Source of the DNA: an uncultured delta proteobacterium
Lineage (GTDB): Bacteria > Desulfobacterota > WTBG01
Direction: 5' to 3'
Assembly: GCA_963793865.1 (NCBI GenBank)
Contig: CAWCBP010000005.1
Span: 1 to 25,423, forward strand
Length of the DNA: 25,423 nt
Part shown: one piece after another, positions 7,268 through 24,173 of the stretch
How positions within the stretch are numbered: position 1 is the first letter of the stretch
Layout of the letters: each line of letters starts with the position of its first letter
Program-made: the position numbers and the translations under genes
Notes under the pieces: generated by a model
Told to the model about the DNA's origin: nothing
The model's input: only the letters and a program-made list of their open reading frames with translations
Databases searched by the model: none

Positions 7268-7299
7268 TTCAGCAGGGATGCGATGGAGGAAAAGGGTCG

Positions 7300-7680
7300 A
7301 TGGATGAAGCACACGGCAGCCTTGTTGAGCGATACTTTGAGCAATTTCTTCCACAGGTCATCGGCAAGTCAATTTTTGCAGATCTTGATAATCTGAGTGT
7401 TGTGGTACGATTTTTTATTACAGACGGCGAACGCGGATGGACGATTAGCCTGGAGAAGGGGCAACTGATCCGGATTGAGCGGGGCTCCGCCCCGGCACAC
7501 ACCTTTTCCTACAATCTTGACGCACAGACGCTGCTCCAGGTTGTTTCGGGAACCGTGTCTCCCCAAAAGGCATTCTTTACGGGAAAAGTGAAGATACAGG
7601 GAGACACGCTCAAAGGGCTTAAACTCGCTATGATATTTGACCGGTTTATTAGGGCCTATCCATTCACGTGTGCTCTTTGA
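7300..7680 (+). CDS. SCP2 sterol/lipid-carrier domain protein
   Basis: 126 aa with the C-terminal SCP2 signature G-x-x-SPQKAFFTGKVKIQGD. Confidence 0.8.
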   Translation: MDEAHGSLVERYFEQFLPQVIGKSIFADLDNLSVVVRFFITDGERGWTISLEKGQLIRIERGSAPAHTFSYNLDAQTLLQVVSGTVSPQKAFFTGKVKIQGDTLKGLKLAMIFDRFIRAYPFTCAL

Positions 7681-7720
7681 GCACATGTCACTGTGCGGTG
7701 ATCCATTGGTACCTGATAGC

Positions 7721-8434
7721 ATGGCAATGGTTATCGAGGAAAATGTTTCTTTTATCTCGGATGGGCTCGCATTAGAGGGCGTCCTGAGTTATGACCAAGA
7801 GCTCTCTCACGCTCCCGGAGTCATTCTGTGTCCGCCTCACCCCCATTTGGGGGGAGACATGAATAATAATGTCATCATGGCAGTTCAGAATGCCCTGTCC
7901 CGCGCTGGTGTCATAAGCCTGCGATTCAACTACCGTGGCGTGGGCAACAGTCAAAGAGCCGGGGTTGATGAAAAAGAGGATCTTAAAGCCTTTTGGGAAA
8001 ACTCCTGGGCACCGGATGATGAAGCGAAAGAACAGGATGTGTTGAGTGCTATTAATTTTCTGCGGGGAATACAGGGATTAATTCATGATCAGGTTTTCCT
8101 GGTAGGTTATTCCTTCGGGTCGTATCTTGCTCTGAGAGCTGCAGAAAAGTGTCCAATGGTAAAAGCACTGGTATTAATATCACCCACTGTCCATTTCCAT
8201 GACTTCACCTATCTCAATTATTCCTCCATTAACAAGCTTGTTGTTAGCAGCAATAATGATTTTTCCTGCCCACTGGAAGAACTGATGCGCGTGTATGATG
8301 GTTTTTCCTCTCCTAAAGGCTTATATCTTGTTGATGATGCAGACCATTTCTTCATTGGCTGTGAAGACACGGTGAGTAAAAGGATTGAACAGTTTATAGT
8401 GGAGCAGCATGCGGGGGAAACGGCCAATGGATAA
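7721..8434 (+). CDS. Alpha/beta-fold hydrolase (COG2945-like)
   Basis: CPPHPHLGGDMNN, LRFNYRGVG, nucleophile GYSFG, NDF and ADHFF. The start is uncertain (in-frame ATGs at 7685, 7721 and 7727). Confidence 0.85.
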   Translation: MAMVIEENVSFISDGLALEGVLSYDQELSHAPGVILCPPHPHLGGDMNNNVIMAVQNALSRAGVISLRFNYRGVGNSQRAGVDEKEDLKAFWENSWAPDDEAKEQDVLSAINFLRGIQGLIHDQVFLVGYSFGSYLALRAAEKCPMVKALVLISPTVHFHDFTYLNYSSINKLVVSSNNDFSCPLEELMRVYDGFSSPKGLYLVDDADHFFIGCEDTVSKRIEQFIVEQHAGETANG

Positions 8435-10625: not shown

Positions 10626-10638
10626 TAAAGGAGCGAGT

Positions 10639-11757
10639 ATGTTTGCGCAATGGTTCGCACAGCCCCCTGATGAATGGCTTCGACATGTAATAGCCATCCA
10701 TTTTCATCCTGAGACGGGAACACCGTACTGGATTGAAAAGGCGCGCGAGCTGGGCGTTAATGCGCCATGCGAAATCAAGACCCTTGAAGACCTTAGCATC
10801 TTCGGTCCGATGGATGAGATGGCAATGACCACCCGTCCCATAGAGCATTTTATACCCCTTGAGTATTCCACGGAAAAGAGGCGTTTCATTTTAGGCGATA
10901 CGGCAGGCACTACCGGTACACCCAAGGTGACTGCTTACCGGGAAGACGAATTTTATCTCGCGTTTGTGGAATACTTTGCCTTTGTTGCTGAGGCAATGAA
11001 TTTTCCGAAAGGCGCCAACTGGCTGTGGATAGGGCCGAGTGGTCCGCACATCATAGGCAAGGCGGCGAGAATGGTCTGCTTGAGGATGGAAAGCATGGAT
11101 CCTTTTTCCATTGACTTTGATCCCCGGTGGATAAAAAAGCTTGCTCCCGGATCCATGGGATGGAACCGATACCTTCAACATATAGAGGATCAGGCGCTGC
11201 ACATTTTACAGACCCAAAAAATTGAAGTGTTATTTTCAACCCCTCCGGTGATTAAACGGCTGGTATCGGTACTGGATGATACTCAGAAAGCACGAATTAA
11301 AGGCGTTCACTACGGGGGAATGCCGCTTGATGCTGAATTCTACCAGGAATTGAGAACCGTGCACTTTCCCAACGCGGTTCATATTTCGGGCTATGGAAAT
11401 ACGCTTTTCGGAGTATGTTTAGAGGTCGGCAACAGCGCGATCGGGCCAACACACTATTTTTCACCCGGACCCCGGCTGATTTTGAATGTTGTTCCCCGCG
11501 TTGAGGGCCCTCACGACCGCGGGTCGGGGCATGAGCAACCCGGCCGCAAAGTGGACTATGGTGAGCGGGGACAGGTGATGTTCCACCGGCTTGATGAAAG
11601 CTTTCTCATTATCAATATGTTCGAGCGGGATGAGGCGGTGAGAATCCCCCCGAGTTCGCGTGCCCTGCAGATGGGATTGTCGCTCGATGGCGTGAGTGAT
11701 CCGCAGCCTATTGCCGATACGGCCGGTAACAGCAAACCTGCCCTGGGGCTTTATTAA
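10639..11757 (+). CDS. EhpF-like atypical adenylating enzyme (ANL superfamily, PaaK-related)
   Basis: Motifs collinear with Pantoea EhpF as I recall its sequence: HFHPETGTPYW, TAGTTGTPK (P-loop), PSGPHIIG, FSIDFDPRWIKK, STPPV, GYGNT, VDYGERG, ERDEAVRIP and C-terminal GLY. Strong RBS AAGGAG. Confidence 0.75.
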   Translation: MFAQWFAQPPDEWLRHVIAIHFHPETGTPYWIEKARELGVNAPCEIKTLEDLSIFGPMDEMAMTTRPIEHFIPLEYSTEKRRFILGDTAGTTGTPKVTAYREDEFYLAFVEYFAFVAEAMNFPKGANWLWIGPSGPHIIGKAARMVCLRMESMDPFSIDFDPRWIKKLAPGSMGWNRYLQHIEDQALHILQTQKIEVLFSTPPVIKRLVSVLDDTQKARIKGVHYGGMPLDAEFYQELRTVHFPNAVHISGYGNTLFGVCLEVGNSAIGPTHYFSPGPRLILNVVPRVEGPHDRGSGHEQPGRKVDYGERGQVMFHRLDESFLIINMFERDEAVRIPPSSRALQMGLSLDGVSDPQPIADTAGNSKPALGLY

Positions 11758-11818
11758 AAATATGTGCGGTTGTCATGTTCCTGCGCACAACTAACTTCGC
11801 ACGAGGGAGAAGACTTTC

Positions 11819-13021
11819 ATGGATACGCGGTTGAAAAAAATTGAACTGCTGGCTCCTGCGGGCAGGTGGGAGGTTTTAGACGTAGTGCTGGAAAGGGGCG
11901 CGGATGCCGTGTATCTCGCGGGGAAGGAATATAACATGCGCAGGCATCGCTCCGATTTTAATTTCAGCCGGGATGAAATCGCGCGCGCCGCAGACAAGGT
12001 TCACGCCGCCGGCGCGAAAATCTATATTACCGTCAACAGCCTGCTCAGCGAGCGAGAGCTTGATGAAATTGGAGAATACCTGGCCTTCCTGGAGTCGGTG
12101 GCGGTTGACGCTCTTATTGTCCAGGATCTTGGACTTATTCAGCTCATCACTCGGTCAGGGTTCAACCTGCCCCTCCATGCAAGCACCATGATGAACATCC
12201 ACAGTGCGGAGGGAGCGCGTGCCTGTGCCGATTCGGGCATCAGCCGCATCATTTGCTCCAGGGACGTCGCCCTGCACCAGGTCAAGCAGATGCGGGATGA
12301 CAGCGGACTCGAGATGGAATACTTTGTCCATGGAGATATGTGTATCGCGCAGAGCGGCCAGTGTTATATGAGCGGCATCCTTTTTGGCAGGAGCAGCAAC
12401 CGGGGTAAATGCATGAAGCCGTGTCGCTGGCCCTATCAGATGGTAAACCAGGGAGGAGGTGTGCTGGAGACCAAGATGGATGGTTCGTATCTCCTCGCGA
12501 CAAAGGACATCTGCCTCCTGGAATTCATACCGGAACTCATTGAAGCGGGGGTACATGCTCTGAAGATCGAAGGCAGAATGCGCGCGCCGGCCTTTCTGGC
12601 CGGTGTTGTCGAGGTGTACCGCAGGACGATTGACCAGTACTGCAGTGATCCCTATGGCTTTATCAACGATATCCGTGCATACGATGAGCTCTACCGCAAT
12701 CGGGTAAGAGATTTCTCAGCATGCTGTGCTTTGCGCAAACCTGACGCCGGCCTGGTGGGATCATCCGGAGAGAGAGAGCCCTTTTTTTTGAGTACCGCGG
12801 TGAGGGAAAAGGAAATAGACCTGTTGCATCCCGAGGAAGTCTTCAATGATACAGGAGATGTGCAGACGAGAAGGACTGATCAGGTGAACCGGGTGCTTCT
12901 TGCCGTCCATGCGGGGTCTCCTGAGGGTGCCCGGGAAGCCCTGGAGCGGGGGGCAGAATGGATTTACATTGGCGGGGAGGTTTTCCGTCTCGAGGACAAA
13001 GATGGGGGCTGTCTTCCTTAA
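11819..13021 (+). CDS. U32-family [4Fe-4S] protein, N-terminal part of a probable single gene 11819-13866
   Basis: ELLAPAG, ADAVY, LHASTM, FVHGDMC-x6-C-x15-C-x3-C and LKIEGRMR. The last ~40 aa begin a second U32 barrel (ALERGAEWIYIGGEVF). Confidence 0.85.
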   Translation: MDTRLKKIELLAPAGRWEVLDVVLERGADAVYLAGKEYNMRRHRSDFNFSRDEIARAADKVHAAGAKIYITVNSLLSERELDEIGEYLAFLESVAVDALIVQDLGLIQLITRSGFNLPLHASTMMNIHSAEGARACADSGISRIICSRDVALHQVKQMRDDSGLEMEYFVHGDMCIAQSGQCYMSGILFGRSSNRGKCMKPCRWPYQMVNQGGGVLETKMDGSYLLATKDICLLEFIPELIEAGVHALKIEGRMRAPAFLAGVVEVYRRTIDQYCSDPYGFINDIRAYDELYRNRVRDFSACCALRKPDAGLVGSSGEREPFFLSTAVREKEIDLLHPEEVFNDTGDVQTRRTDQVNRVLLAVHAGSPEGAREALERGAEWIYIGGEVFRLEDKDGGCLP

Positions 13022-13866
13022 GGGACATCATCTCCCGGGCACGCGACATGGGGAAAAATGTCGGACTGCTGACCCCACGGGTTACCCTTGCGCGCCAGCT
13101 GGATGAACTTAAGTGGTTTTTGGATCAGGCCGGTTTAGTGGCTCCGGATGCCGTGTTGGTCCATAACCTTGGAAGCCTGCACCTGGTCAGAACACAAAGC
13201 GATATTCCCATGTATGCTGATTTTTCTTTCAATGTGTTAAATCGCAGCTCCATTGAGTATCTCAGCCGCCTGGGGGCACGTCAGGTAACGCTTTCCCTCG
13301 AAGCATCTTTTAAAACCCTTAAGGATTTAGCCGGCAGCGCCTGTGTGCCTCTTGAGTGTATCATCCACGGCCCCATCCCCGGAATGTATTTGGAACACTG
13401 CCTGATGAGCATGAGCCTGATGAATACCACGTCTCACGATCCCTGTCGAGGTCCCTGCCGTTACCTTCAGTGCGGCCTTTCAGATACACTGCAACAAATC
13501 CACCCCATCGAAGTGGATCAATACTGCCGCACTCATCTTTTGTTCTCAAAGGATCTGGCCTGCCTCAATTACGTTGCAGATTTTGTGAATACCGGTGTTC
13601 GCACATTACGAATCGAGGGGCAATACTATGAGAAGGAGTTGGTGGGAGCGCTCACCGCGCTCTATGCGGATCTCATTGCAAACCCGTTTCAGGGCATTAA
13701 CGCTGCACGTTTAAAACGTCTCATCGCCATGAGTCCGCGGGGCTTCAGCCTGGGGGCATATCCGAAAGGCATATGCGAAGATGCCTCCCAGCCGCATACT
13801 GGACCCTCCCCGGATGCGCAGCCCGTCCTCCGGGACTCTTCCTTGAGGCACTCTTCGGCTCACTGA
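12958..13866 (+). CDS. U32-family protein, C-terminal part (second U32 domain after the frameshift at ~12981-12984)
   Basis: VLVHNLG, ADFSFNVLN, VTLSLE, IHGPIPGMYLEHC...CRGPC, LFSKDLACL and LRIEG. It lacks its own U32 N-terminal strands, which are in the upstream frame. Confidence 0.75.
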   Translation: MDLHWRGGFPSRGQRWGLSSLRDIISRARDMGKNVGLLTPRVTLARQLDELKWFLDQAGLVAPDAVLVHNLGSLHLVRTQSDIPMYADFSFNVLNRSSIEYLSRLGARQVTLSLEASFKTLKDLAGSACVPLECIIHGPIPGMYLEHCLMSMSLMNTTSHDPCRGPCRYLQCGLSDTLQQIHPIEVDQYCRTHLLFSKDLACLNYVADFVNTGVRTLRIEGQYYEKELVGALTALYADLIANPFQGINAARLKRLIAMSPRGFSLGAYPKGICEDASQPHTGPSPDAQPVLRDSSLRHSSAH

Positions 13867-13884
13867 TCCTCGGGAGCAGCTTAT

Positions 13885-15189
13885 ATGTCGCAAACCTATC
13901 TCGGACCGGAAGCAATTCTCGAGAAGAAGAAGAGATACCTCATTCCCTGTGTCTACCATTTTTACCGAAACCCGCCTCAGATCGTGAGAGGGGAAATGGA
14001 ATATCTGTATGATCACCAGGGGAAGAGGTACCTCGATTTTTACGCAGGGGTTGCGGTGGTCAATGCAGGACACTGCCATCCCGAAATAACAGATAAAATA
14101 TGCAAACAGGTCAAAACGCTGCAGCACACCACGGCCATATACCTCACCCAGCCCATGGTGGAGCTTGCAGAAAGATTGTCATCGATTACTCCCGGAGACT
14201 TATCCAGCACCTTCTTCTGCAACAGCGGTTCCGAGGCAAACGAGGGAGCGCTTATGCTTGCCAGGCTTTTCACCGGAAGAGAAGGGTTTGCCGCGCTTGA
14301 AAACTCTCTTCACGGGAGAACCTATTTGACCATGAGCGTGACGGGCATTCCCATGTGGAGAACAGATCACAGCTTGTCATCCCGGGTTGTGTTTATCCCC
14401 CCACCCTACTGTTACCGTTGCTCATTCCAGTTGAGCTACCCGAGTTGTGATCTCAGATGTGCCTATGAGATTGAAAAGGCAATAGACAGCATAGGATCGC
14501 ACCGGATTGCTGCTTTTATTGCAGAACCCATTCAGGGCAATGGAGGCATCATTGTTCCACCTCCCGATTATTTTAAGGTGGCAAAGGACATCCTGGATCG
14601 TCATCGGATTCTCTTCATTGCCGACGAAGTACAAACGGGCTTTGGACGGACCGGAACCATGTTTGCCGTCGAGCAATGGGGCGTTGTGCCCTCCATTCTC
14701 ACCGTCGCTAAGGCCCTGGCAAATGGTGTGCCGGTGGGGGCATTTATCACCAATCCGGATATTGCCTCCTCTTATACTAAACCGGGTGCCTCAACCCTGG
14801 GGGGGAACCCTGTAACTGCAGTAGCTGCACTTGCAACACTAGAAGTCCATCAGAAATATAACCTGCGAGGCAATGCTGTAAAGATGGGAGAACATTTCAT
14901 GGAATGTCTCTTAGCCTTACAGGAGAAACATGCTCTTATCGGGGAAGTGCGGGGAAGGGGTTTAATGCTGGGGGCAGAACTGGTCAGGGATAATAAGACT
15001 CCCGCTGCTCAAGAGACAGACACTATTCTGGAATACCTGAAAGATCACGGGGTTCTTATTGGTAAAACCGGGGCAGGTAGAAATGTTCTTACTTTTCAAC
15101 CACCCTTAATTATCTCAAAAGATCAGATTGATCAGGTCGTAACAACACTGGATCGCGCCCTGGCTCAGCCCATGGCTAAAAGCGCGTGA
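13885..15189 (+). CDS. Class III PLP-dependent aminotransferase (AGXT2/GabT-like)
   Basis: YLDFYAGVAVVNAGHCHP, NSGSEANE, LHGRT, IAEPIQGNGG, FIADEVQTGFGRTG, PLP lysine in AKALANG, and STLGGNP. Confidence 0.92.
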   Translation: MSQTYLGPEAILEKKKRYLIPCVYHFYRNPPQIVRGEMEYLYDHQGKRYLDFYAGVAVVNAGHCHPEITDKICKQVKTLQHTTAIYLTQPMVELAERLSSITPGDLSSTFFCNSGSEANEGALMLARLFTGREGFAALENSLHGRTYLTMSVTGIPMWRTDHSLSSRVVFIPPPYCYRCSFQLSYPSCDLRCAYEIEKAIDSIGSHRIAAFIAEPIQGNGGIIVPPPDYFKVAKDILDRHRILFIADEVQTGFGRTGTMFAVEQWGVVPSILTVAKALANGVPVGAFITNPDIASSYTKPGASTLGGNPVTAVAALATLEVHQKYNLRGNAVKMGEHFMECLLALQEKHALIGEVRGRGLMLGAELVRDNKTPAAQETDTILEYLKDHGVLIGKTGAGRNVLTFQPPLIISKDQIDQVVTTLDRALAQPMAKSA

Positions 15190-15318
15190 AGAGGATGAGG
15201 CTTTTCCTTGTAATGTGCAATATCACCGGATTATCTCACCTGTAAAAATGCAAGGCAAACCTCCGAAGCAGGCGTGAGGAAGTTCCAACCATCCCCATGT
15301 CAAGCGGAAAACAAATTC

Positions 15319-16725
15319 ATGAAGATATTGCTTGTTTATCCTGCACCGGAACGATTTCCCATCAGCGTCTATCAATATCGTTATGTTTCGGTTCCCGCCA
15401 TATTGACGCACATGGCCGCCCTGACTCCTCCTGAACACAGCATCAGGCTCGTCGATATGATGGTTGGTGACCCTGTGCCATATAACGAGGCGTTCGATCT
15501 CGTTGGTATCACAGTTCGAACCCCTATGGCACCTGTTGCCTATCAGATTGCGGACCGGTTCCGCGCACAGGGAATCACGGTTGTGCTGGGAGGAGCTCAC
15601 GTTTCCGTGCTGCCGGAAGAAGGAAAGACACATGCAGACTCGGTAATTATTGGTGAAGCAGAGGACACCTGGAGTTTGCTCCTGCATGATCTTGAAACTC
15701 AGCAGATGGCAGACTATTACGTTTGCGGACCTCATGAAACCAACATGCTAAAAGGGCGGGTGAGGCATCTACCGCAGCGCCCGAACTTGAAAGGTCTGCC
15801 TGCTCCACGCACTGATCTGCTTGATCGCGACAGGTACATCATGGATACTTTTATGACCACCCGCGGCTGTGTTTTTGGCTGTCGTTTTTGTAATGTGCAG
15901 CCACTGTTTGGATCGCACATACGTCACCGTCCAATTCCAGAGGTAATAAAAGAGCTGATTGATGCACGTCGACTTTTGCTTTCCGTGGATGACAATGTAT
16001 TCGGAGCACCGGGGGATGCAGACTATTACCTGCAGCTCTATGGGGCGATGAAGGACCTCAGACCCGCCAGGTATTGGGCCGGACAAGGTTCGCTTGCGGT
16101 GGCATCCTATCCCCGGGCTGACAAACTGCTTGAAACAGCCTCCAGAAGCGGTTTGTCGCTTTTAACCGCAGGTATTGAGGCGTTGGATTGCACGGGGCTT
16201 GAAGAAAGCGGTGCTTACCGGAAGCTCGGGCTTGTGCATGCAGAAAACATGTCTGCCTGGCAGACCGGTGAAAGCATCAAGAAGATTCAAAGTTATGGTA
16301 TCAATGTGCTCGGGTATTTCATCATAGGATTCCGGCAGGATACCATGAGTTCATTTGACCGCGTATTGGAGTTCTGCGATCACCATTCGATCATACCGGT
16401 ACCCATTCTTCTCCATCCTCTACCCGGCACGGAACTCTATGATGAATATGTGCGGGAAGGTCTCATGCGGGACGGGGCCGACTGGGCCGATTTTGATGGG
16501 GCCCATTTAGTGCTTCTCCATCCGGCATTTGAGAAAACCGGCATTGAGACGGCCTACATAAAAAAAGTGATGGAAGCAAACAGTCTCGCGCGACGGACAA
16601 GACGGAACCTGCTGCGGCTTTTTGCGAATCCGCGAATCGACAGCGCCATAAACTTCTACAAAACCCAGCAGGTGATGCATCGGGGAATACGTGAGTACGT
16701 AAACTGCATGAACCATTCGGAGTGA
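15319..16725 (+). CDS. Second cobalamin-binding radical SAM protein
   Basis: MKILLVYP start (ATG 15319 preferred over GTG 15274), VVLGGAHVS, IGEAE, TTRGCVFGCRFC, VDDN and PLPGT. Confidence 0.9.
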   Translation: MKILLVYPAPERFPISVYQYRYVSVPAILTHMAALTPPEHSIRLVDMMVGDPVPYNEAFDLVGITVRTPMAPVAYQIADRFRAQGITVVLGGAHVSVLPEEGKTHADSVIIGEAEDTWSLLLHDLETQQMADYYVCGPHETNMLKGRVRHLPQRPNLKGLPAPRTDLLDRDRYIMDTFMTTRGCVFGCRFCNVQPLFGSHIRHRPIPEVIKELIDARRLLLSVDDNVFGAPGDADYYLQLYGAMKDLRPARYWAGQGSLAVASYPRADKLLETASRSGLSLLTAGIEALDCTGLEESGAYRKLGLVHAENMSAWQTGESIKKIQSYGINVLGYFIIGFRQDTMSSFDRVLEFCDHHSIIPVPILLHPLPGTELYDEYVREGLMRDGADWADFDGAHLVLLHPAFEKTGIETAYIKKVMEANSLARRTRRNLLRLFANPRIDSAINFYKTQQVMHRGIREYVNCMNHSE

Positions 16726-16891: not shown

Positions 16892-17440
16892 TTATAGCCA
16901 GAACTCGGGATATTTCCTCTTGGCGGGAATATTATTAACCAGGAGGGCTATAACCAGCATAATGGCGGCACCAGTTCCAACCGGCACAATCGTATACCAG
17001 TACCCAAGATCATGAATCTTATCGCTCCCGGTTACGGCTATCAGGGCGGTCGCCCCGCCGGGCGGATGCAGGGTCCTTGTGGCATGCATAACCGCAAGAG
17101 AAGTGGCAACAGCGAGAGCGGATGCCAACCACATCTGATCGTGAAAGAACTTTTGGGCAGTAACACCAATAAGGGCTGAGATAATGTGCCCGCCGAGGAG
17201 GTTCCTTGGCTGGGCCAGGGGACTTCTCACCACACCGTACAGTAAAACCGCTGAAGCCCCAAACGATCCTGTTATAAATAAGATATCACCATTATTAAAA
17301 AGATTATAATGAATCCATGCAACCACACCAATGCCGAGAAAAGCCCCGGTCCATGACCACAGAATCTCGGAGAGGCTTACCCCGGGGGGGCTCTTCGTGG
17401 TGCCCCGCATTTTGCTCAGGTAATGACGTAGTGTTTCCAT
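16892..17440 (-). CDS. HPP-family membrane protein (family includes nitrite transporters)
   Basis: SFGASAVLLYG..SPLAQPRN..GGH and TLHPPGGATAL motifs with several TM helices. ATG 17440; alternative TTG 17446. Confidence 0.92.
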   Translation of the reverse strand: METLRHYLSKMRGTTKSPPGVSLSEILWSWTGAFLGIGVVAWIHYNLFNNGDILFITGSFGASAVLLYGVVRSPLAQPRNLLGGHIISALIGVTAQKFFHDQMWLASALAVATSLAVMHATRTLHPPGGATALIAVTGSDKIHDLGYWYTIVPVGTGAAIMLVIALLVNNIPAKRKYPEFWL

Positions 17441-17487
17441 GACCAACCGGCGCTATCACCGCGCAGCATTGTTAACCGTTACCGGTT

Positions 17488-18102
17488 CTATCTCGATATT
17501 CTGCCGACCGGCATCTTCAGCAGATCACCCCTGGTGACTATTCCTTTCAAAACGGCAGCGCTATCAACGACAGGAATTCTATTAATCTTTTTTTCATGAA
17601 AGAGGGTGTTGATTTCAAAAACGGTGGCGTTTTCAATGACGGTAATGGCAGGCGCGGTCATAATATCGCGGGCTTTCTGAGCACGGATGGGCATGACAAG
17701 ACACCATTTATTCCTCAAACAGTTTGCAATCACCGCCATGAAATTTGTTGCACTGCCATCTCCCATGGTGCGGAGAAAGTCCTTTTCAGAAATAACACCG
17801 ACAACCCTTTTCCCTTCATCGACAATGGGTAACCCTGATATCCCCTTCTTACCCATCAGCTGCGCTACTTCTTCAAGTGAAGCAGCAGGGGTAACGGAAA
17901 CAACATTTACAGTCATAATGTCCTTTGCTTTAATTGACTCCACTACTCTCTGAAAGGCCTTGCGACAGGCAATGGTATAGATGTGCTTAAAATCTTCCGC
18001 TGTAATATCCAAATAGCCGGGTATTTCTTTCATTGCCCGATAAATATCATCATCCGACAGTACAATATCATTAAGCTTGGTATCATTGAGTAATTCGCCC
18101 AT
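17488..18102 (-). CDS. CBS-domain pair protein associated with the HPP gene
   Basis: Two CBS domains (AKDIMT...ISGLPIVD...VGVISEKD; ARDIMT...INRIPVVD...GIVTRGD) and an N-terminal YLDITAED motif. Directly upstream of the HPP gene on the same strand. Confidence 0.9.
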   Translation of the reverse strand: MGELLNDTKLNDIVLSDDDIYRAMKEIPGYLDITAEDFKHIYTIACRKAFQRVVESIKAKDIMTVNVVSVTPAASLEEVAQLMGKKGISGLPIVDEGKRVVGVISEKDFLRTMGDGSATNFMAVIANCLRNKWCLVMPIRAQKARDIMTAPAITVIENATVFEINTLFHEKKINRIPVVDSAAVLKGIVTRGDLLKMPVGRISR

Positions 18103-18269
18103 ACCCACATCCCGGACAATGGCATAGCGCGCGTTCGCTCGGTTTGCTCATTGCACCTCTGTTGAAATTAATGCATACAATATTCTGTTTTTTCTACCAA
18201 AGTGTTTTACCCATACGGGTAATGGAATTCACAAACTACTTTTATAATAACATGCATGATTTGCTTCAG

Positions 18270-18287
18270 ATATGATATAAGTCATAT
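18270..18287. promoter_or_regulatory. Crp/Fnr-type palindrome in the divergent CBS-HPP / Rieske intergenic region
   Basis: Perfect ATATGA-N6-TCATAT (TGA-N6-TCA core). A plus-strand TATAAA at 18309-18314 starts 30.5 nt from the box centre, close to the spacing at the other two boxes (30.5 and 31.5). Confidence 0.5.
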
Positions 18288-18356: not shown

Positions 18357-18812
18357 GTGCGAGGCAACTGTTTGGGAAATAAAACGAGCGATACGGACAG
18401 GCGAACGTTTCTTGGGAAAGTGTGGACTGCCGCACTTGCTCTCGCCGGTTGCTCCGCCGCCTTCATTGCGGGCGGTTTTCTCTATCCGGTAGCGAGGCGC
18501 AAGTCCCCGCCTTTGTTTGTGTGCCTGGAATCACAGGTCTCCCCCGGGAAACCTCTTGAAATAAAGGATCCGGAAGGAAGAAATGTTCTCCTCCTGCGAA
18601 AGGATGGCGGGGAAATTATTGCGCTCGGATCTATCTGCCCTCATTTGGGCTGCACCGTTTACTACCGGCCGCAGAAGAACATATTTGAATGCCCCTGTCA
18701 CCAGGGTGTTTTTGACGCGGACGGCAACCCGATAGCAGGTCCACCGGAACAGCCACTCAATCATTACGAAACCGAAGTGCGCGGCGGTAAGGTTTTTGTG
18801 CAATTCGCATAG
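18357..18812 (+). CDS. Rieske [2Fe-2S] subunit of a Rieske/cytochrome b complex
   Basis: Tat motif DRRTFL plus a TM anchor, and boxes CPHLGC and CPCH. The start codon is uncertain. Confidence 0.92.
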   Translation: MRGNCLGNKTSDTDRRTFLGKVWTAALALAGCSAAFIAGGFLYPVARRKSPPLFVCLESQVSPGKPLEIKDPEGRNVLLLRKDGGEIIALGSICPHLGCTVYYRPQKNIFECPCHQGVFDADGNPIAGPPEQPLNHYETEVRGGKVFVQFA

Positions 18813-18820
18813 GAGACGTT

Positions 18821-19894
18821 ATGGAACAGCAGGCACGGGAGGGGTTGCTCAAAGCCTTGCCCATAGACATCAAGAGCCTTTACGAAAAGGCTGATGAACC
18901 GCTTCCCCACTCCGTGAAGCTCTGGTGGTGGTGCTGGGGAGGAATCCCCGGTCTGTTATTTGCAATTCTTGCCCTGTCGGGACTTATCCTGTCCATATAT
19001 TACCGCGCGGAGCCGGAGACCACCTACAAGTCGATTGCCTTCATAACCGGGGAAGCGCGATATGGGCAGTTTGTCCGTTCGGTTCACCGGTGGGGCGCAA
19101 CCTTCATGATTGTCTGCGTGTTCCTGCATATGCTCCGGACCTTCGTGACAGCGGCATTCAGGGATTACCGGTGGGGAGCATGGGTCGGCGGCGTAATCCT
19201 TCTGGCGCTTACTCTGGGAATGGGCTTCACCGGTTATGCCCTGGTGTATGACCAGAAAGGTTATTGGGCTTTGACCATTACCTCCAACATTATTGCCACG
19301 GTTCCGTTCATCGGAGAAATGCTGAAAAACCTTTTCCTGGCGGGAGACAGGATCAACCCAGCCACGCTGAGCCGCATGTATTCCCTGCACGCGATGATAC
19401 TCCCCGCCTCCTTAATACTGTTTGTGATGGGCCATCTTTTCTTTGTGAGGCTTATGGGATTATATCTGCCCGGAAACAAGCGAGACCGGCAGGAGGAAAA
19501 GGAGCGCATGGCACGCGAAGGTGCTTACCACTTTTATCCCGACCACCTGGCGAGCGAGTTTGCCGTTTTCCTGTACCTCGTCCTGGTGATCTCGCTCCTC
19601 TCACTGGCATTGCCCGCTGTCATGGGTGAACCGGCCGACCCGGCAGTTACACCGGAGCACATAAAGCCGGAGTGGTATTTTTATCCCTTCTACCATCTGC
19701 TCAAGATCGTTCCCGGAGCCGTTGGAGTAACCATCATTGCCATCTTCGGCATTGGGCTTGTGTTCTGGCCGGTTTTGGATCACCATCTTTTTCAGCGGAT
19801 TGACAGGTTTGTCGGGTGGCGTCTTGATTTGAGCCTGGTGCTCGGTTTGATGGTTGCGGCATTGTTTCTTTTCTGGACATTTGCCGAGGCATAA
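18821..19894 (+). CDS. Cytochrome b of a Rieske/cytochrome b complex (b6-like domain and subunit IV-like domain in one chain)
   Basis: CWGG, RSVHRW...LHMLR, FTGY, YW, SLH...GH heme ligands, and TPEHIKPEWYF Qo motif. Confidence 0.92.
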   Translation: MEQQAREGLLKALPIDIKSLYEKADEPLPHSVKLWWWCWGGIPGLLFAILALSGLILSIYYRAEPETTYKSIAFITGEARYGQFVRSVHRWGATFMIVCVFLHMLRTFVTAAFRDYRWGAWVGGVILLALTLGMGFTGYALVYDQKGYWALTITSNIIATVPFIGEMLKNLFLAGDRINPATLSRMYSLHAMILPASLILFVMGHLFFVRLMGLYLPGNKRDRQEEKERMAREGAYHFYPDHLASEFAVFLYLVLVISLLSLALPAVMGEPADPAVTPEHIKPEWYFYPFYHLLKIVPGAVGVTIIAIFGIGLVFWPVLDHHLFQRIDRFVGWRLDLSLVLGLMVAALFLFWTFAEA

Positions 19895-19896
19895 GC

Positions 19897-21507
19897 ATGA
19901 AGGAGGCATCCATGAGTCTTAAGCTAAAGCAGGCAATCATTGCTGTTGTCTCTATGGCCATCGTTGTGGTGCTCGCCTACGTCGTATACACCGAGCGCAG
20001 ACACGAGATGGTTGAACACAAAATAATAGTAAAGCCGGATTCTGCCGGCTGCGTAAGGTGCCACGGCTACGGGGATGATGGAGGGGCCGGCAGCAGCCCC
20101 GGCATCGTCAAGCACTGGGAGGCCAGTGTCCATGCCGCGCAAGGTGTCGGTTGTGCGGATTGTCACGGTATGGCTGCCGCGGGCAGTGTCGAGGATATTG
20201 AAAACCCCCGGTACGTGGTCAGCACCACCTGGGACAAGAACACCGGCCTCAAGACGGTTGCGCTTGCCATGCAGGACGGCAGGCCTGTGGAGCGGGCGGA
20301 CCTCTGGGAGCATGAGGGCACCCAGATCGTAGTCGGCGTTTCTCCCCGCACCTGTGCCCGCTGCCACGAAAAGGAAGCCACCGAGTTCTTCAACTCCCGG
20401 CACGCATCGGCAGCCCAGTTCATCGGCTCCATAGATAATTTTCTGGGTCGTTTTGCCGAAGGTCCGGCGGCCGCCAATAATGGCTGCCAGCAATGCCATG
20501 GCAGTGTGGTGAGGATTGCCTCCACGGATGCGCCTGCCAAAAACCCCCGCTATGCTCCGGACACCTGGCCCAATACGGGAATGGGCCGTGTCAACAGTGA
20601 TGGATCATGGGGCTCATGCAGCGCCTGTCATTCCCGGCATGAATTCTCCGCGGAACTTGCCCGGCGTCCTGAGAACTGCGGGAAATGCCACATGGGTCCG
20701 GACCACCCGCAGATTGAAATCTATAACGAATCAAAGCATGGAATTGCTTACAGGAAGAATGAGCGGTTCATGCAATTGGACCTGCCCGGAGGCAAATGGG
20801 TGCTGGGAAAAGACTACGCTCAGGCACCGGTGTGTTCTACCTGCCACATGGGCCCGGTGGCACGGCACGGGAATTATCCCGGGCTGGAGCTCACCCATGA
20901 TGTGGGTTCGCGCATCTCATGGACGAATCGACCTGAGATATCAATCCGACCGCAGGGCATCACCGCGGCGGATGGGAGGGTGCTGCTCAAGGATTCGGAG
21001 GGTCGCCGTGCCGACATGAAGCAGGTGTGCCTTACCTGCCATTCGGTCAACTGGGTGGACAACTTTTATGTCCAGTATGACGAGGCGGTCGAACTCTACA
21101 ATAATAAATATGCCAGGCCGGCTGTGGCGATTTATGATTTCCTCAAGAAGGAGGAGCTTCTGGATGAAGTGCCCATGAACGAAGAAATGGATTATGTATT
21201 CTTCGAGATCTGGCACCATGAAGGGCGAAGGGCCCGCCACGGGGCCAGCATGATGGGGCCTGATTATGTGCAATGGCATGGGTTCTATGAATTAACCCGG
21301 AACATGTATACCCACTTCCTGCCCCTGGCGGTTGAGGTTGGAGAAAAGGCGGGAAAGGGCGACCTTGTTCGCGGCTTCATAAAAGATACCCTGCGCGGAA
21401 CGGACGGCAAAGACTGGGAACCGTATCATCAATGGACGGAAGGGCTCAGCCTCGATCAAAAAGAGGCCATGATCGAGTGGGAAAAGAGCACCTATCAGCG
21501 ACACTAA
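19897..21507 (+). CDS. Membrane-anchored octaheme HAO-family cytochrome c, reductive (epsilon-Hao-like) type
   Basis: Eight CxxCH motifs, CSACHSRHEFS...ARRPENCGKCHMGPDHPQIEIYNESKHG, WHHEGRRARHGASMMGPDYVQWHG, and an N-terminal TM helix. Alternative start ATG 19912 follows AGGAGG. Confidence 0.88.
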   Translation: MKEASMSLKLKQAIIAVVSMAIVVVLAYVVYTERRHEMVEHKIIVKPDSAGCVRCHGYGDDGGAGSSPGIVKHWEASVHAAQGVGCADCHGMAAAGSVEDIENPRYVVSTTWDKNTGLKTVALAMQDGRPVERADLWEHEGTQIVVGVSPRTCARCHEKEATEFFNSRHASAAQFIGSIDNFLGRFAEGPAAANNGCQQCHGSVVRIASTDAPAKNPRYAPDTWPNTGMGRVNSDGSWGSCSACHSRHEFSAELARRPENCGKCHMGPDHPQIEIYNESKHGIAYRKNERFMQLDLPGGKWVLGKDYAQAPVCSTCHMGPVARHGNYPGLELTHDVGSRISWTNRPEISIRPQGITAADGRVLLKDSEGRRADMKQVCLTCHSVNWVDNFYVQYDEAVELYNNKYARPAVAIYDFLKKEELLDEVPMNEEMDYVFFEIWHHEGRRARHGASMMGPDYVQWHGFYELTRNMYTHFLPLAVEVGEKAGKGDLVRGFIKDTLRGTDGKDWEPYHQWTEGLSLDQKEAMIEWEKSTYQRH

Positions 21508-21550
21508 GAACTCCGTTAATCTGCAGGACCTGACCGGGCTGTGCCGCAAA

Positions 21551-22240
21551 CTATGCAAGTCGGCGCGCGCCGCCGGCAAGCGCTTTGAGTCCCTCGCGAT
21601 CAAGGATTTTGATGGTGCGCTGTCCCGGGGAGGCGATCAGATCCTCGCTGCTCATGCGGGCCAGAATGCGGGAAAGCGTTTCCGGTATGGTTCCCAGCAG
21701 GCTGGCAAGCTGGGTCTTGGATATATCCAGGGTGAGATGCGGTGAGCGGCCCCCGGTTTCGCTGAGATAGAGCAGGTAGGCGGACAGCCTGCCCGGCACC
21801 TCTTTTAACGACAGGTCTTCGACCAGTGCGCTGAACCTTCGCAAACGCACGGAGAGCACGGCGAGCATGTTCATGGCAAGGGATGGATTCTTTTTTATCA
21901 AATCAATAAAGGCCCTGCGCGGGATGAAAAACGATTTGATTTCTTCCATTGCCTGAGCATGGGCGGGAAAATGCGCCCCGGAGAATACCGGGACTTCGCC
22001 AAACGGTTCACCGGGACCGATGATGTGCAGGATCTGCTCTTTTCCTTCGCGGGAGATTTTGAACACCTTGACCCGCCCCGAAATGACAAGGTAAAATCCG
22101 TCCCCGGCATCGCCTTCCGCAAAGATGGTTTGCTTTTTTTTAAAAGACTTCCGCACCGCTATCGATGCTAATTGTTTATGGTGTTCCGGTGTCAGCCCCT
22201 GGAACAGGGGTATGTCTGCCAGCTGTTTCAACACATCCAT
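21551..22240 (-). CDS. hcpR: Crp/Fnr-family transcriptional regulator, HcpR type
   Basis: cNMP-like domain (GKEQILHIIGPGEPFGE), HTH with LGTIPETLSR (ExxSR), and divergent arrangement with hcp. Confidence 0.8.
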   Translation of the reverse strand: MDVLKQLADIPLFQGLTPEHHKQLASIAVRKSFKKKQTIFAEGDAGDGFYLVISGRVKVFKISREGKEQILHIIGPGEPFGEVPVFSGAHFPAHAQAMEEIKSFFIPRRAFIDLIKKNPSLAMNMLAVLSVRLRRFSALVEDLSLKEVPGRLSAYLLYLSETGGRSPHLTLDISKTQLASLLGTIPETLSRILARMSSEDLIASPGQRTIKILDREGLKALAGGARRLA

Positions 22241-22352
22241 TTTTCACCTCATCGTTGCGTCTTTGAAAGTATCAACCCGGGTTGTTCCAATTCAAGGCAT
22301 GCGGAAAGCATTTCCGGCGAAGACATCCTCAGCTCAAAAAAATATTTACTTT

Positions 22353-22368
22353 CTTGACTTGAATCAAG
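22353..22368 (+). promoter_or_regulatory. HcpR/Fnr-type binding site upstream of hcp, with -10 candidate TATTAT at 22392-22397
   Basis: Perfect CTTGA-N6-TCAAG palindrome between the divergent hcpR and hcp genes, at class II activator distance from the -10 candidate. Confidence 0.75.
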
Positions 22369-22467
22369 GCTTATTCTCCCGCATCGGCCTATATTATTCC
22401 TCACAAGGCTCGTATTCAAGGATTATAATCAATAACCCAAACATCAACAGATAAAGGAGGCAGCATT

Positions 22468-24111
22468 ATGGGAACATCAACTATGTTTTGTTATCAATGT
22501 GAACAGACGGCAAAAGGCGAGGGATGCACCAAAGGCGGTGTATGCGGAAAAGATCCGGATGTGGCGGCGCTGCAGGATTTGTTGGTGCATGCGGTGCAGG
22601 GACTCTCCCAGGTTGCGGTTGAGGGCCGCAAAGCAGGCGTCACGGATAAGCAGGTCAATGCGTTTACCGTGCAAGCCCTCTTTGCAACGCTTACCAATGT
22701 GGATTTTGACGCCGAGCGTTTTATGGAACTGATCAACACCTGCGTTGAATTGCGGGAAGAATTGAAGAAGAAGGTGAAAGCGGCCGGCGGGAAGGTGGAC
22801 GTTGCCTCAGGGCCGGCAGTCCTTCAGCCTGCGAAAGATCTTGACGGTTTGATTGACCAGGGCACAAAGGTCGGCTTGAAGTCGGATCCCGGCATTGACC
22901 CGAATATTCTCTCCCTGCAGCACACAACGCTGTTCGGCATCAAAGGTGTGGCCGCCTATGCGGATCATGCCCGGATTCTCGGCCAGGAAGACGACAAGGT
23001 GTATGCTTTCATTCATGAAGGTCTGGCAGCAATGCTGAATAAAGACCTGACCCTGAATGACTGGGTCGGACTTGTCCTGAAATGCGGGGAAATAAATCTC
23101 AGGGCCATGGAGCTGCTCGATGCCGGCAATACAGGAACCTACGGGCATCCCGTTCCCACCAAGGTACCCCTGGGAGCGAAGAAGGGAAAGGCCATTCTCG
23201 TTTCAGGCCATGACCTGAAAGACCTGGAAGAACTCCTGAAGCAGACCGAGGGCAAAGGAATCAACGTTTATACCCATGGCGAGATGCTGCCCACCCATGG
23301 ATATCCCGGGCTTAAGAAATACCCGCATTTCTATGGCCATTACGGCACCGCCTGGCAGAACCAGAACAAGGAATTTGCCGATTTCCCCGGCGCCATTCTG
23401 ATGACCACCAACTGCATCCAGAAGCCCAGAGAGTCATATAAGGACAATATCTTTACCATCGGCCTGGTGGGCTGGCCCGGCGGACACATATTTGGACAGG
23501 AATTTTGCCCCGGTGATCGAGAAGGCTCTCGCCATGCCCGGGTTCGCTGCAGATACGCAACGGCAAGTCTGTCACGGTCGGATTTGCCCGAAATGCGGTC
23601 ATGGGCGTTGCCGGATAAGGTCATCGAAGCGGTGAAGAGCAAAAAGATCCGGCATTTCTTCCTGGTGGCCGGCTGTGACGGGGCAAAACCGGGCCGGAAC
23701 TATTACACCGAGTTTGTGGAAAAAGTCCCCAAAGATTCCGTGGTTCTGACGCTTGCCTGCGGTAAATTCCGCTTCTTTGACAAGGACCTGGGAGACATCG
23801 GGGGATTCCCGAGGCTGCTTGACATCGGTCAGTGCAATGATGCCTATTCGCCGATCCAGATCGCCGTTGCCCTGGCCAAGGCATTCAAGGTGGGCGTAAA
23901 TGAGCTGCCCCTGTCGATGATTCTCTCCTGGTATGAGCAGAAGGCTGTGGCGATTCTGCTTACGCTTCTGCATCTGGGGATCAAGAATATCCGCCTCGGG
24001 CCGAGTCTTCCGGCCTTTATTACCCCGACAGTGCTGGATGTGCTGGTGAAGAACTTTAACATCATGCCCATCACGACGCCGGACAAGGATCTTAAGGCAA
24101 TAGTGGGATAA
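22468..24111 (+). CDS. hcp: Hybrid cluster protein (NO / hydroxylamine reductase) with internal compensating frameshifts
   Basis: MFCYQCEQTAKGEGCTKGGVCGK cubane motif and hybrid-cluster ligands GHD, HGEM, TNC, GCDG, ACGK, GQCND, WYEQKA. RBS AAGGAGG. Segment ~23481-23613 reads out of frame. Confidence 0.95.
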   Translation: MGTSTMFCYQCEQTAKGEGCTKGGVCGKDPDVAALQDLLVHAVQGLSQVAVEGRKAGVTDKQVNAFTVQALFATLTNVDFDAERFMELINTCVELREELKKKVKAAGGKVDVASGPAVLQPAKDLDGLIDQGTKVGLKSDPGIDPNILSLQHTTLFGIKGVAAYADHARILGQEDDKVYAFIHEGLAAMLNKDLTLNDWVGLVLKCGEINLRAMELLDAGNTGTYGHPVPTKVPLGAKKGKAILVSGHDLKDLEELLKQTEGKGINVYTHGEMLPTHGYPGLKKYPHFYGHYGTAWQNQNKEFADFPGAILMTTNCIQKPRESYKDNIFTIGLVGWPGGHIFGQEFCPGDREGSRHARVRCRYATASLSRSDLPEMRSWALPDKVIEAVKSKKIRHFFLVAGCDGAKPGRNYYTEFVEKVPKDSVVLTLACGKFRFFDKDLGDIGGFPRLLDIGQCNDAYSPIQIAVALAKAFKVGVNELPLSMILSWYEQKAVAILLTLLHLGIKNIRLGPSLPAFITPTVLDVLVKNFNIMPITTPDKDLKAIVG

Positions 24112-24122
24112 AAAGGTACGAA

Positions 24123-24173
24123 AGATCGGGGGTTCAAGCGCGCAGGTGAAAAATAAGCTTGAACCCTCGATCT
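24123..24173 (+). terminator. Stem-loop downstream of hcp
   Basis: 17-bp arms AGATCGGGGGTTCAAGC (24123-24139) / GCTTGAACCCTCGATCT (24157-24173) with one G-U pair, followed by CTTTAAT. Confidence 0.6.

What the first reader, a model, noticed from the sequence alone, without database searches (positions are those of the whole stretch)
18357..21507. Three-gene Rieske/cytochrome b complex in which the c-type subunit is a reductive octaheme HAO-family enzyme
Seen: Rieske, cytochrome b and an octaheme protein separated by 8 and 2 nt, with no cytochrome c1/f gene. The octaheme has MMGPDYVQW where Nitrosomonas HAO has HVNPGGWTY (alignment from memory), giving Met for the His ligand and Trp for the P460 cross-linking Tyr. 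Known: HAO homologs without the Tyr cross-link (epsilon-Hao type) reduce nitrite and hydroxylamine, and Rieske/cytb-HAO pairings are described in anammox bacteria with extra subunits. Inference: a minimal quinol:nitrite/NO/hydroxylamine reductase that could conserve energy through a Q-cycle, unlike NrfAH.
Basis: partly seen in the sequence, partly recalled or inferred. Interest (0 to 1): 0.72.

Follow-up and report, generated by a model that had tools for sequence, protein, structure and literature searches.

The report
Quinol-fed eight-heme nitrite defence complex
Three adjacent genes encode a Rieske protein, a cytochrome b and an eight-heme enzyme with a predicted membrane anchor, which likely assemble into one complex that uses membrane quinol to reduce nitrite or nitric oxide, here probably for protection rather than nitrate respiration; the trio is already proposed in print but no bench test was found.

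Summary
Confirmed, with two corrections. The three genes are real, but the octaheme probably starts at 19912 (gap 17 nt, not 2), and the cross-link position can be Q459 or W460. Neither is Tyr. The octaheme is epsilon-Hao/IhOCC-like (Met452...Trp460). The idea is in print: Kublanov 2017 (PMC5317091) describes adjacent Rieske, cytochrome b and epsilon-Hao genes in Caldithrix abyssi and proposes direct electron transfer and proton-motive force. This scan noted the trio before (37 findings, at least 28 genomes).

Added here: (1) All 36 Rieske/cyt b-linked octahemes carry an uncleaved-type N-terminal anchor; NrfD-linked ones (0/21) and stand-alone ones have signal peptides instead. (2) A complex prediction gives weak support for the anchored N-terminal part docking on cyt b (0.55, best control 0.00). 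(3) The cyt b is unsplit yet keeps the heme-ci cysteine. (4) This clade has no nitrate reductase in the genomes searched and sits beside hcpR-hcp and HPP, with HcpR boxes upstream in 6 of 18 relatives.

Most likely a menaquinol:nitrite/NO reductase used for nitrosative defence. The Q-cycle and the product are untested.

The parts
18357..18812 (+). Rieske [2Fe-2S] protein with twin-Arg anchor, boxes CPHLGC (94-99) and CPCH (112-115). Gly117/Phe119 at the two potential-tuning positions, so predicted low potential.
   Evidence: Gly/Phe rule from PMC3509893
18821..19894 (+). Unsplit seven-helix cytochrome b (b6 plus subunit IV fused). Heme b ligands H89, H103, H190, H205; Qo motif PEWY 283-286; CxGG cysteine C38 (putative heme ci); invariant H242 and E246.
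19900..19906 (+). Shine-Dalgarno AAGGAGG, 5 nt before ATG 19912, the likely true start of the octaheme
   Evidence: sequence; homologue N-termini
19912..21507 (+). Octaheme cytochrome c of the HAO family, epsilon-Hao/IhOCC type (531 aa from 19912; frame open from 19897; residue numbers in this report count from 19897). Eight CxxCH motifs; about 40-residue clade-specific insert between hemes 2 and 3.
19918..20007 (+). N-terminal helix (residues 8-37): predicted uncleaved membrane anchor and docking helix for cytochrome b
20701..20706 (+). D269-H270, the distal-pocket pair aligned with N. europaea HAO D267-H268
20929..20931 (+). R345, invariant (86/86), aligned with HAO Tyr334; candidate anion-binding residue (inference)
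21250..21276 (+). M452...W460 (MMGPDYVQW): Met at the HAO His459 position, no Tyr at the P460 cross-link position
21551..22240 (-). Crp/Fnr regulator, HcpR-like (recognition helix reads IPETLSR), divergent from hcp
   Evidence: PMC1274295
22354..22367 (.). HcpR-type palindrome TTGACTTGAATCAA upstream of hcp; the only exact match to the pattern in the window
22468..24111 (+). hcp, hybrid-cluster (prismane) protein; has an out-of-frame-looking stretch near residues 340-376
16892..18108 (-). Divergent CBS-domain (17488-18108) and HPP-family membrane protein (16892-17446) genes. HPP as a nitrite transporter family is recalled, not tested.
18271..18284 (.). Degenerate palindrome ATGATATAAGTCAT upstream of the Rieske gene; a possible weak HcpR site, not an exact match

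Best explanation
The three genes encode a Rieske protein, an unsplit cytochrome b and an epsilon-Hao-type octaheme that likely form one membrane complex, predicted to oxidise menaquinol and pass electrons to the octaheme, which likely reduces nitrite, NO and hydroxylamine as part of nitrosative defence. Shown by sequence: all cofactor ligands, PEWY, the heme-ci Cys, the missing cross-link Tyr, conserved clustering and the hcpR-hcp/HPP context. Predicted: the octaheme's N-terminal helix stays in the membrane and packs on cytochrome b, placing hemes 1-2 where c1 normally accepts from the Rieske head. Inferred: quinol oxidation at PEWY is bifurcated. One electron goes via the low-potential Rieske cluster down the heme chain to catalytic heme 4; the other crosses hemes bL/bH(/ci) to re-reduce quinone, so protons would be translocated as a by-product. 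Ammonium is the likely end product, with NO escaping when the donor potential is limiting and Hcp removing it.
For: Octaheme: best PDB sequence hit and best Foldseek hit are both IhOCC 4QO5 (E 2.7e-36; E 2.8e-18). Met...Trp in 86/86 aligned sequences and 162/165 locus ORFs, none with Tyr at either candidate position. Met eight residues before Trp is the stated epsilon-Hao hallmark (PMC8940962). A cross-link-deficient HAO reduces nitrite, NO and hydroxylamine and cannot oxidise (PMC8042395). Complex: Rieske plus cyt b adjacent in 19/23 distinct close loci, in two gene orders. Anchor motif in 35/36 Rieske/cyt b-linked octahemes (36th has it by eye), 0/21 NrfD-linked and 1/57 stand-alone, with signal-peptide forms nested among anchored ones in several places on the tree. 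Complex score 0.55, best of 3 controls 0.00, including the control with cyt b replaced. That mark was reached by 116 of 157 solved complexes and 2 of 215 mismatches, but at 0.60 or under by only 18 of the 157 and by both mismatches; runs agree in at least 77% of contacts, partner pLDDT at least 69. Q-cycle residues are invariant in 131/131. Menaquinone (futalosine) genes are present. Role: no napA-level hit in this genome or 5 relatives with the trio, narG 0/41, nrfA 1/41. HcpR box upstream of the operon in 6/18 close relatives, 0.04 expected.
Against: No activity, expression or potential measurement exists. The complex pass is rated weak by the tool, used only octaheme residues 1-91 (from 19912), and gave no contacts. 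The window's own Rieske promoter has no exact HcpR box, and the 6 relatives are about 4 independent cases. hcp is in only 4, crp in 6 and HPP in 2 of the 21 trio entries, though many contigs are short. HAO-family enzymes are trimers and Rieske/cyt b complexes dimers, an unresolved mismatch. A Rieske donor may be too oxidising for six-electron reduction: Kustc0458 gave only NO with a +55 mV donor, and making NO is not protective by itself. Residue-based Rieske potentials can mislead (Kustd1480 measured +335 mV without the Tyr). The anchor regex was written after seeing the sequences. In 108 of 151 more distant loci the octaheme has no recognised quinol module beside it.
Confidence: 0.6

Rival explanations
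1. Same complex and chemistry, but its main job is growth-supporting respiration of nitrite to ammonium, with the Q-cycle giving more proton-motive force than NrfHA.
For: Intact Q-cycle core. Menaquinol at about -70 mV against nitrite/NO at +380 mV leaves ample driving force (PMC12954380). napA lies in 4 of 20 distant trio loci (NapA identity checked). HcpR regulons include respiratory nrfHA and nar in Geobacter, so the box does not exclude respiration.
Against: No nitrate reductase was found in this genome or in relatives with the trio, so nitrite must come from outside. The flanking genes are stress genes. Three of the five relatives with the trio carry dsrA, where nitrite defence is the usual need (recalled).
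Confidence: 0.17
2. The octaheme is mainly an electron wire standing in for cytochrome c1, or reduces a non-nitrogen acceptor such as a sulfur oxyanion.
For: The genome encodes about 40 multiheme ORFs that could accept electrons. No substrate has been shown for this subfamily in the papers read.
Against: Active-site D269/H270 and R345 are conserved. Neighbours across the family are nitrogen genes: hcp, napA, amt, nirB-like, qNor. No terminal oxidase to feed was found.
Confidence: 0.1
3. The genes are co-regulated but there is no stable complex; a soluble carrier links Rieske/cyt b to a separately anchored octaheme trimer.
For: Trimer/dimer mismatch. The C. abyssi paper prefers tetraheme NapM as main mediator. 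Complex support is only weak.
Against: No carrier gene lies in the operon. The anchor is kept only with Rieske/cyt b. The score fell to 0.00 when cyt b was replaced.
Confidence: 0.09
4. The complex runs backwards, oxidising hydroxylamine and reducing menaquinone by reversed electron flow.
For: HAO fold and distal pocket are kept.
Against: No cross-link Tyr in either register. Cross-link-deficient HAOs lack oxidative activity.
Confidence: 0.04

Closest known systems
Caldithrix abyssi Cabys_2558/2557/2556 (Rieske, cytochrome b, epsilon-Hao) in the nap cluster; PMC5317091, passages read
   Same: Same three adjacent genes with consecutive locus tags, no c1, Tyr-less octaheme, no NrfA. The paper proposes transfer from Rieske/cyt b via NapM or directly to the octaheme, and pmf generation.
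   Different: There it is inside a nap cluster in a nitrate respirer. Here no nitrate reductase was found and the context is hcpR-hcp/HPP. Genomic proposal only. Its sequences were not in hand, so orthology is untested.
IhOCC, Ignicoccus hospitalis octaheme cytochrome c (PDB 4QO5)
   Same: Best sequence and fold match; Met at the position of M452 and Phe, not Tyr, at W460.
   Different: About 21% identity over the structural alignment; archaeal; no Rieske/cyt b partner known to me.
Campylobacterota epsilon-Hao (Haase 2017; not read, known through PMC8940962 and PMC8042395 passages)
   Same: Trp at the Tyr position and Met eight residues before; reductive.
   Different: No epsilon-Hao sequence was compared directly. 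The Rieske/cyt b anchor is not described in the passages read.
Kuenenia Rieske/cytochrome b complex Kuste4569-4574 (PMC12954380, introduction and passages read)
   Same: Rieske/cyt b with an HAO-like octaheme proposed to reduce nitrite to NO using menaquinol.
   Different: Split b6 plus subunit IV, extra multiheme and NAD(P) oxidoreductase subunits, high-potential Rieske (+303 mV, Ser/Tyr). Here three subunits, unsplit cyt b, Gly/Phe Rieske.
Kustc0458/0457 reductive HAO (PDB 6H5L; PMC8042395, passages read)
   Same: Cross-link-deficient; reduces nitrite, NO, hydroxylamine; partner docks at heme 1.
   Different: His, not Met, at the M452 position (weak alignment); partner is a diheme cytochrome, not Rieske/cyt b.
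NrfHA / NrfABCD nitrite reductases
   Same: Likely functional equivalent. In one genus, two genomes have the trio without nrfA and one has nrfA without the octaheme. Class relatives wire the same octaheme to tetraheme-NrfC-NrfD.
   Different: Eight CxxCH and no CxxCK; HAO fold; quinol oxidation by a bifurcating Rieske/cyt b core.

Membership tests
epsilon-Hao/IhOCC-type reductive HAO | Eight CxxCH motifs and HAO fold | tested here: met
   (pLDDT 88.3)
epsilon-Hao/IhOCC-type reductive HAO | No Tyr at the cross-link position; Trp there with Met eight residues before | tested here: met
   M452/W460 in 86/86; one-residue register ambiguity, Q459 or W460, neither Tyr; hallmark from PMC8940962. Model confidence is low at 456-459.
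epsilon-Hao/IhOCC-type reductive HAO | Groups with Campylobacterota epsilon-Hao in a tree | not tested
   no named epsilon-Hao sequence was fetched
epsilon-Hao/IhOCC-type reductive HAO | No 460-nm band; nitrite and hydroxylamine reductase activity | not testable with these tools
   needs protein
Oxidative HAO (P460) | Cross-linking Tyr467 and His459 | tested here: not met
NrfA / octaheme ONR | CxxCK catalytic heme motif | tested here: not met
   all eight motifs are CxxCH; NrfA/ONR folds score only E>0.09
Rieske/cytochrome b complexes | Membrane-anchored Rieske with both cluster boxes and disulfide cysteines | tested here: met
   27/27 in alignment A2
Rieske/cytochrome b complexes | Four heme-b histidines and Qo motif | tested here: met
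   H89, H103, H190, H205, P283-E284-W285 in 131/131
Rieske/cytochrome b complexes | Bifurcated quinol oxidation with proton translocation | not testable with these tools
   needs proteoliposome assay
Canonical bc1 | Cytochrome c1 subunit | tested here: not met
   octaheme in its place; no c1/f gene in flanks
b6f-type complexes | CxGG cysteine for heme ci and b6-type His spacing | tested here: met
   C38 aligns with the b6 Cys of 2ZT9; Cys in 116/131; heme occupancy untested
b6f-type complexes | Split cytochrome b6 plus subunit IV | tested here: not met
   single 357-aa chain; close homologues are also about 357-366 aa
Anammox Kuste4569-4574-type complex | NAD(P) oxidoreductase and extra multiheme subunits, split cyt b | tested here: not met
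   three-gene unit only
Caldithrix-type nap-Rieske/cyt b-epsilon-Hao cluster | Adjacent Rieske, cyt b, Tyr-less octaheme without c1 | tested here: met
Caldithrix-type nap-Rieske/cyt b-epsilon-Hao cluster | Linked periplasmic nitrate reductase | tested here: not met
   no napA in close-clade loci, this genome or 5 relatives
HcpR regulon | TTGAY-N4-RTCAA box upstream of the operon | tested here: inconclusive
   exact box before hcp, only a degenerate one before the Rieske gene; exact in 6/18 relatives

The most novel reading that the evidence does not exclude
A stand-alone three-subunit enzyme in which an HAO-fold reductase is itself the c-subunit of a Q-cycling complex. It is clipped on by a dedicated anchor helix that is exchanged for a signal peptide whenever the Rieske/cyt b core is lost, and it is built on an unsplit cytochrome b that still binds heme ci. 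It would let strict anaerobes without nitrate reductase turn nitrite/NO defence into proton-motive force.
Probability: 0.35. Interest if true: 0.72.

Novelty: new variant of a known kind. Interest (0 to 1): 0.47.

Why it matters
Nitrite ammonification is usually scored by nrfA and treated as non-electrogenic at the reductase step. A widespread Rieske/cyt b-octaheme complex would be missed by such surveys, is often annotated as hydroxylamine dehydrogenase, and could raise the energy yield of nitrite reduction. The compact operon makes the 2017 proposal testable without Nap. It also bears on cytochrome b evolution: PMC3509893 found the heme-ci Cys only with split cyt b, and PMC5600118 describes fused cyt b as having two hemes, whereas this family is fused and keeps CxGG. 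The core idea is not new, which limits the surprise.

Tried and rejected
Direct alignment to N. europaea HAO stopped before the C-terminal helices, so the Ruegeria HAO from plasmid locus L190 served as a bridge; hhalign also stopped short. Y457 and Y464 were considered as substitute cross-linkers and rejected because Phe replaces them in 14/86 and 15/86. A separate c1 in the window: none; the multiheme pair at 1569-4537 belongs to another operon. A foreign or mis-binned contig was considered because crp-hcp is duplicated at 91% on C8; a same-genus genome has the same trio-crp-hcp order at 79-83% identity, so the locus is taken as genuine. Sequencing runs: no RNA holder listed, best share 0.24, none laid; no evidence either way. 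The promoter/terminator scan was uninformative. With one mismatch the HcpR pattern in the window is at chance level (4 found, 3.6 expected). Papers not held: Marzocchi 2022 and Kjeldsen 2019 on cable bacteria, and Dibrova 2013; they may describe the same pairing or a fused cyt b with CxGG. Two open cable-bacteria papers list Rieske, CytB and a periplasmic multiheme/octaheme without, in the passages read, joining them. Searches found no biochemical study of the trio; the library lacks most subscription papers. No supplements were read. Our-findings look-ups by sequence, by place and for the HcpR/anchor wording returned nothing.
Full report
OBSERVATION. The window is a whole 25.4-kb contig (C5) of a 3.85-Mb genome rated 98.6% complete. 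The closest relatives by octaheme identity (73-83%) are mostly labelled Thermodesulfobacteriota. The octaheme likely starts at 19912, behind AAGGAGG, as its homologues do. Residue numbers here count from 19897.

THE OCTAHEME. It has eight CxxCH and no CxxCK. Sequence and fold searches rank IhOCC (4QO5) first, then Kustc0458 and the HAOs (model pLDDT 88.3, low only at 456-459). Alignments to N. europaea HAO stopped short of the cross-link region, so I bridged through the Ruegeria HAO, which aligns full length with 1FGJ and fixes H459 and Y467. M452 aligns with that His in all three MAFFT modes. The loop is one residue shorter, so Q459 or W460 faces the Tyr. Met...Trp holds in 86/86 aligned proteins and 162/165 locus ORFs, and none of these has Tyr at either place. 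This is the epsilon-Hao hallmark as stated in PMC8940962 (passages). D269-H270 match the HAO distal pair, and an invariant R345 sits at HAO Tyr334. A cross-link-deficient HAO reduces nitrite, NO and hydroxylamine and does not oxidise; it gave ammonia with methyl viologen but only NO with a +55 mV donor (PMC8042395, passages).

THE QUINOL-OXIDISING CORE. The Rieske protein has a twin-Arg anchor and both cluster boxes. None of 27 trio Rieskes has Ser or Tyr at the tuning positions: Gly (one Ala) and Phe. PMC3509893 reads Gly/Phe as below +200 mV (passages); PMC12954380 shows such predictions can miss. The cytochrome b is one chain of seven predicted helices. Its four His and P-E-W are invariant in 131/131, and C38, aligned with the heme-ci Cys of b6, is in 116/131. 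PMC3509893 found that Cys only with split cyt b, and PMC5600118 describes fused cyt b as two-heme (passages); PMC4122944 lists CxGG clades without this one in the passages read. Dibrova 2013 could not be read. The genome has futalosine-pathway menaquinone genes and cytochrome c maturation genes.

IS IT ONE COMPLEX? One search examined 176 locus entries. In the close clade (at least 54% identity; 25 entries, 23 distinct) Rieske and cyt b are adjacent in 19. One more has cyt b at a contig edge, two are cut off, and one (L101) truly lacks them. Two orders occur, Rieske-cyt b-octaheme and octaheme-Rieske-cyt b; several loci are near-identical, so these are not 19 independent cases. Among 151 more distant loci, 20 have Rieske/cyt b, 22 a tetraheme-NrfC-NrfD module, 1 NapC and 108 none recognised. 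Of 165 loci with an intact eight-heme ORF, an anchor-type N-terminus was found in 35/36 with Rieske/cyt b (L007 missed by the pattern but plain by eye), 0/21 with NrfD and 1/57 stand-alone loci with long flanks (L149, itself behind a Rieske/cyt b pair); 3/49 edge loci have it. Mean peak hydropathy was 2.75 against 1.80 and 1.97. The pattern was written after seeing the sequences. On a FastTree tree of 119 sequences (two thirds of the unanchored stand-alone ones left out), anchored forms fall in several clades with signal-peptide forms nested among them, including L101 inside the window's clade; deep support is poor. A prediction of cyt b, Rieske and the first 91 octaheme residues scored 0.55 against a best control of 0.00, and 0.00 when cyt b was replaced. 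The tool calls this weak: 116 of 157 solved complexes and 2 of 215 mismatches reached the mark, but only 18 of the 157 and both mismatches did so at 0.60 or under; runs agree in at least 77% of contacts, partner pLDDT at least 69. The prior was favourable, so I count it as modest support. The trimer/dimer mismatch is unresolved.

WHAT FOR? The trio lies between CBS-HPP and an HcpR-like regulator divergent from hcp. The HcpR consensus wyTTGACnnnnGTCAArw (PMC1274295, passages) is matched before hcp at 22354. An exact TTGAY-N4-RTCAA lies within 400 nt of the operon start in 6/18 close relatives, about four independent, against 0.04 expected; the window's own promoter has only a degenerate palindrome. 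This genome shows no NapA-level hit (best 30-42% on formate-dehydrogenase-like proteins), no nrfA, dsrA, heme-copper oxidase/NorB or bd oxidase. narG was not found in 41 genomes, nrfA in 1 of 41, and napA in 0 of 5 relatives with the trio, which are 79-95% complete. Three of those five have dsrA. In genus g14 two genomes have the trio and no nrfA, one has nrfA and no octaheme, and one has neither. Class relatives place a NrfD-type module with the same octaheme among the same hpp/cbs and crp/hcp genes (L181), and a Desulfosarcina plasmid has NapC-octaheme among HPP, CBS, Crp, norR and a NO reductase. The octaheme is therefore a modular reductase with three interchangeable quinol feeds. In this clade it sits in a nitrosative-stress setting; napA is linked only in 4 of 20 distant trio loci.

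MECHANISM. Shown: ligands, motifs, clustering, context. Predicted: the anchor packs on cyt b. Inferred: menaquinol (about -70 mV) is oxidised at PEWY; one electron passes Rieske to heme 1 and on to heme 4, where nitrite, NO or hydroxylamine is reduced; the other returns through the b hemes, translocating protons. The driving force to nitrite/NO is about 450 mV. Whether six-electron reduction is complete at Rieske potential is open. Confidence 0.6; growth-supporting respiration 0.17; wire or other substrate 0.10; no stable complex 0.09; reverse direction 0.04.

NOVELTY. PMC5317091 (passages) already reports consecutive Rieske, cyt b and epsilon-Hao genes without c1 in Caldithrix abyssi and proposes direct transfer and pmf. 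Anammox complexes are a richer parallel. This scan has 37 earlier findings with these words in at least 28 genomes, seen after my own reading was recorded; they agree and are not independent evidence. The searches listed under Tried and rejected found no biochemical test. What differs here is the Nap-free, HcpR/hcp setting, the anchor that tracks the Rieske/cyt b core, and the fused cyt b with CxGG. Verdict: new variant of a known, untested kind; interest 0.47.

Noticed in passing
window 4683-16725 (+): Long cluster of two B12-binding radical SAM genes, an NAD-dependent reductase, SCP2, alpha/beta hydrolase, MMPL transporter, AMP-binding protein, two U32 proteins and a class III aminotransferase. 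It looks like unusual lipid synthesis; a resemblance to ladderane-linked clusters is recalled only, and one search found nothing.
   Followed up: partly
window 1569-4537 (+): A five-CxxCH cytochrome followed by a cytochrome b561-type membrane domain fused to 13 CxxCH motifs.
   Followed up: no
window about 23485-23600, in hcp: About 36 codons read out of family frame compared with the L001 hcp, then return; probably compensating sequencing indels.
   Followed up: partly
window 21549-24170 vs G000:C8:491845-494486: hcpR-hcp is duplicated at 91% identity; the C8 hcp copy has many indels and two HcpR boxes, and lacks the trio. A third hcp (70%) is at C8:185652-187283.
   Followed up: partly
G000:C14:175113-177959: Tetraheme-NrfC-NrfD module 58-79% identical to those that partner this octaheme family elsewhere, but with no octaheme gene after it.
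   Followed up: partly
G000:C13:27619-29193 and C8:7633-10243: Two more Rieske/cytochrome b units: one directly after succinate dehydrogenase/fumarate reductase genes with no c subunit seen, one with a five-CxxCH C-terminal part. Neither has the heme-ci Cys.
   Followed up: partly
G000:C1:605484-606776 (-): Second, apparently soluble octaheme HAO homologue (24% identity) with His...Trp instead of Met...Trp, next to a rubrerythrin-like gene.
   Followed up: partly
L149:2854-7337: amt, Rieske, cyt b, then two octahemes in tandem: an anchored His...Trp type and one 43% identical to the window's.
   Followed up: partly
L022, L031, L116, L117, L118: A distant clade of the trio lies directly behind ammonium transporter genes, some near a nirB-like gene, hinting at ammonium as product or an assimilatory role.
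   Followed up: no
L068, L075, L077, L080, L178, L180, L181, L184: Exact HcpR/Fnr-type boxes about 2.7-3.3 kb upstream of the octaheme, near the start of the NrfD-type operons.
   Followed up: partly
G000:C1:548796-576891: Dense island of about 14 multiheme cytochrome ORFs with up to 14 CxxCH each.
   Followed up: no
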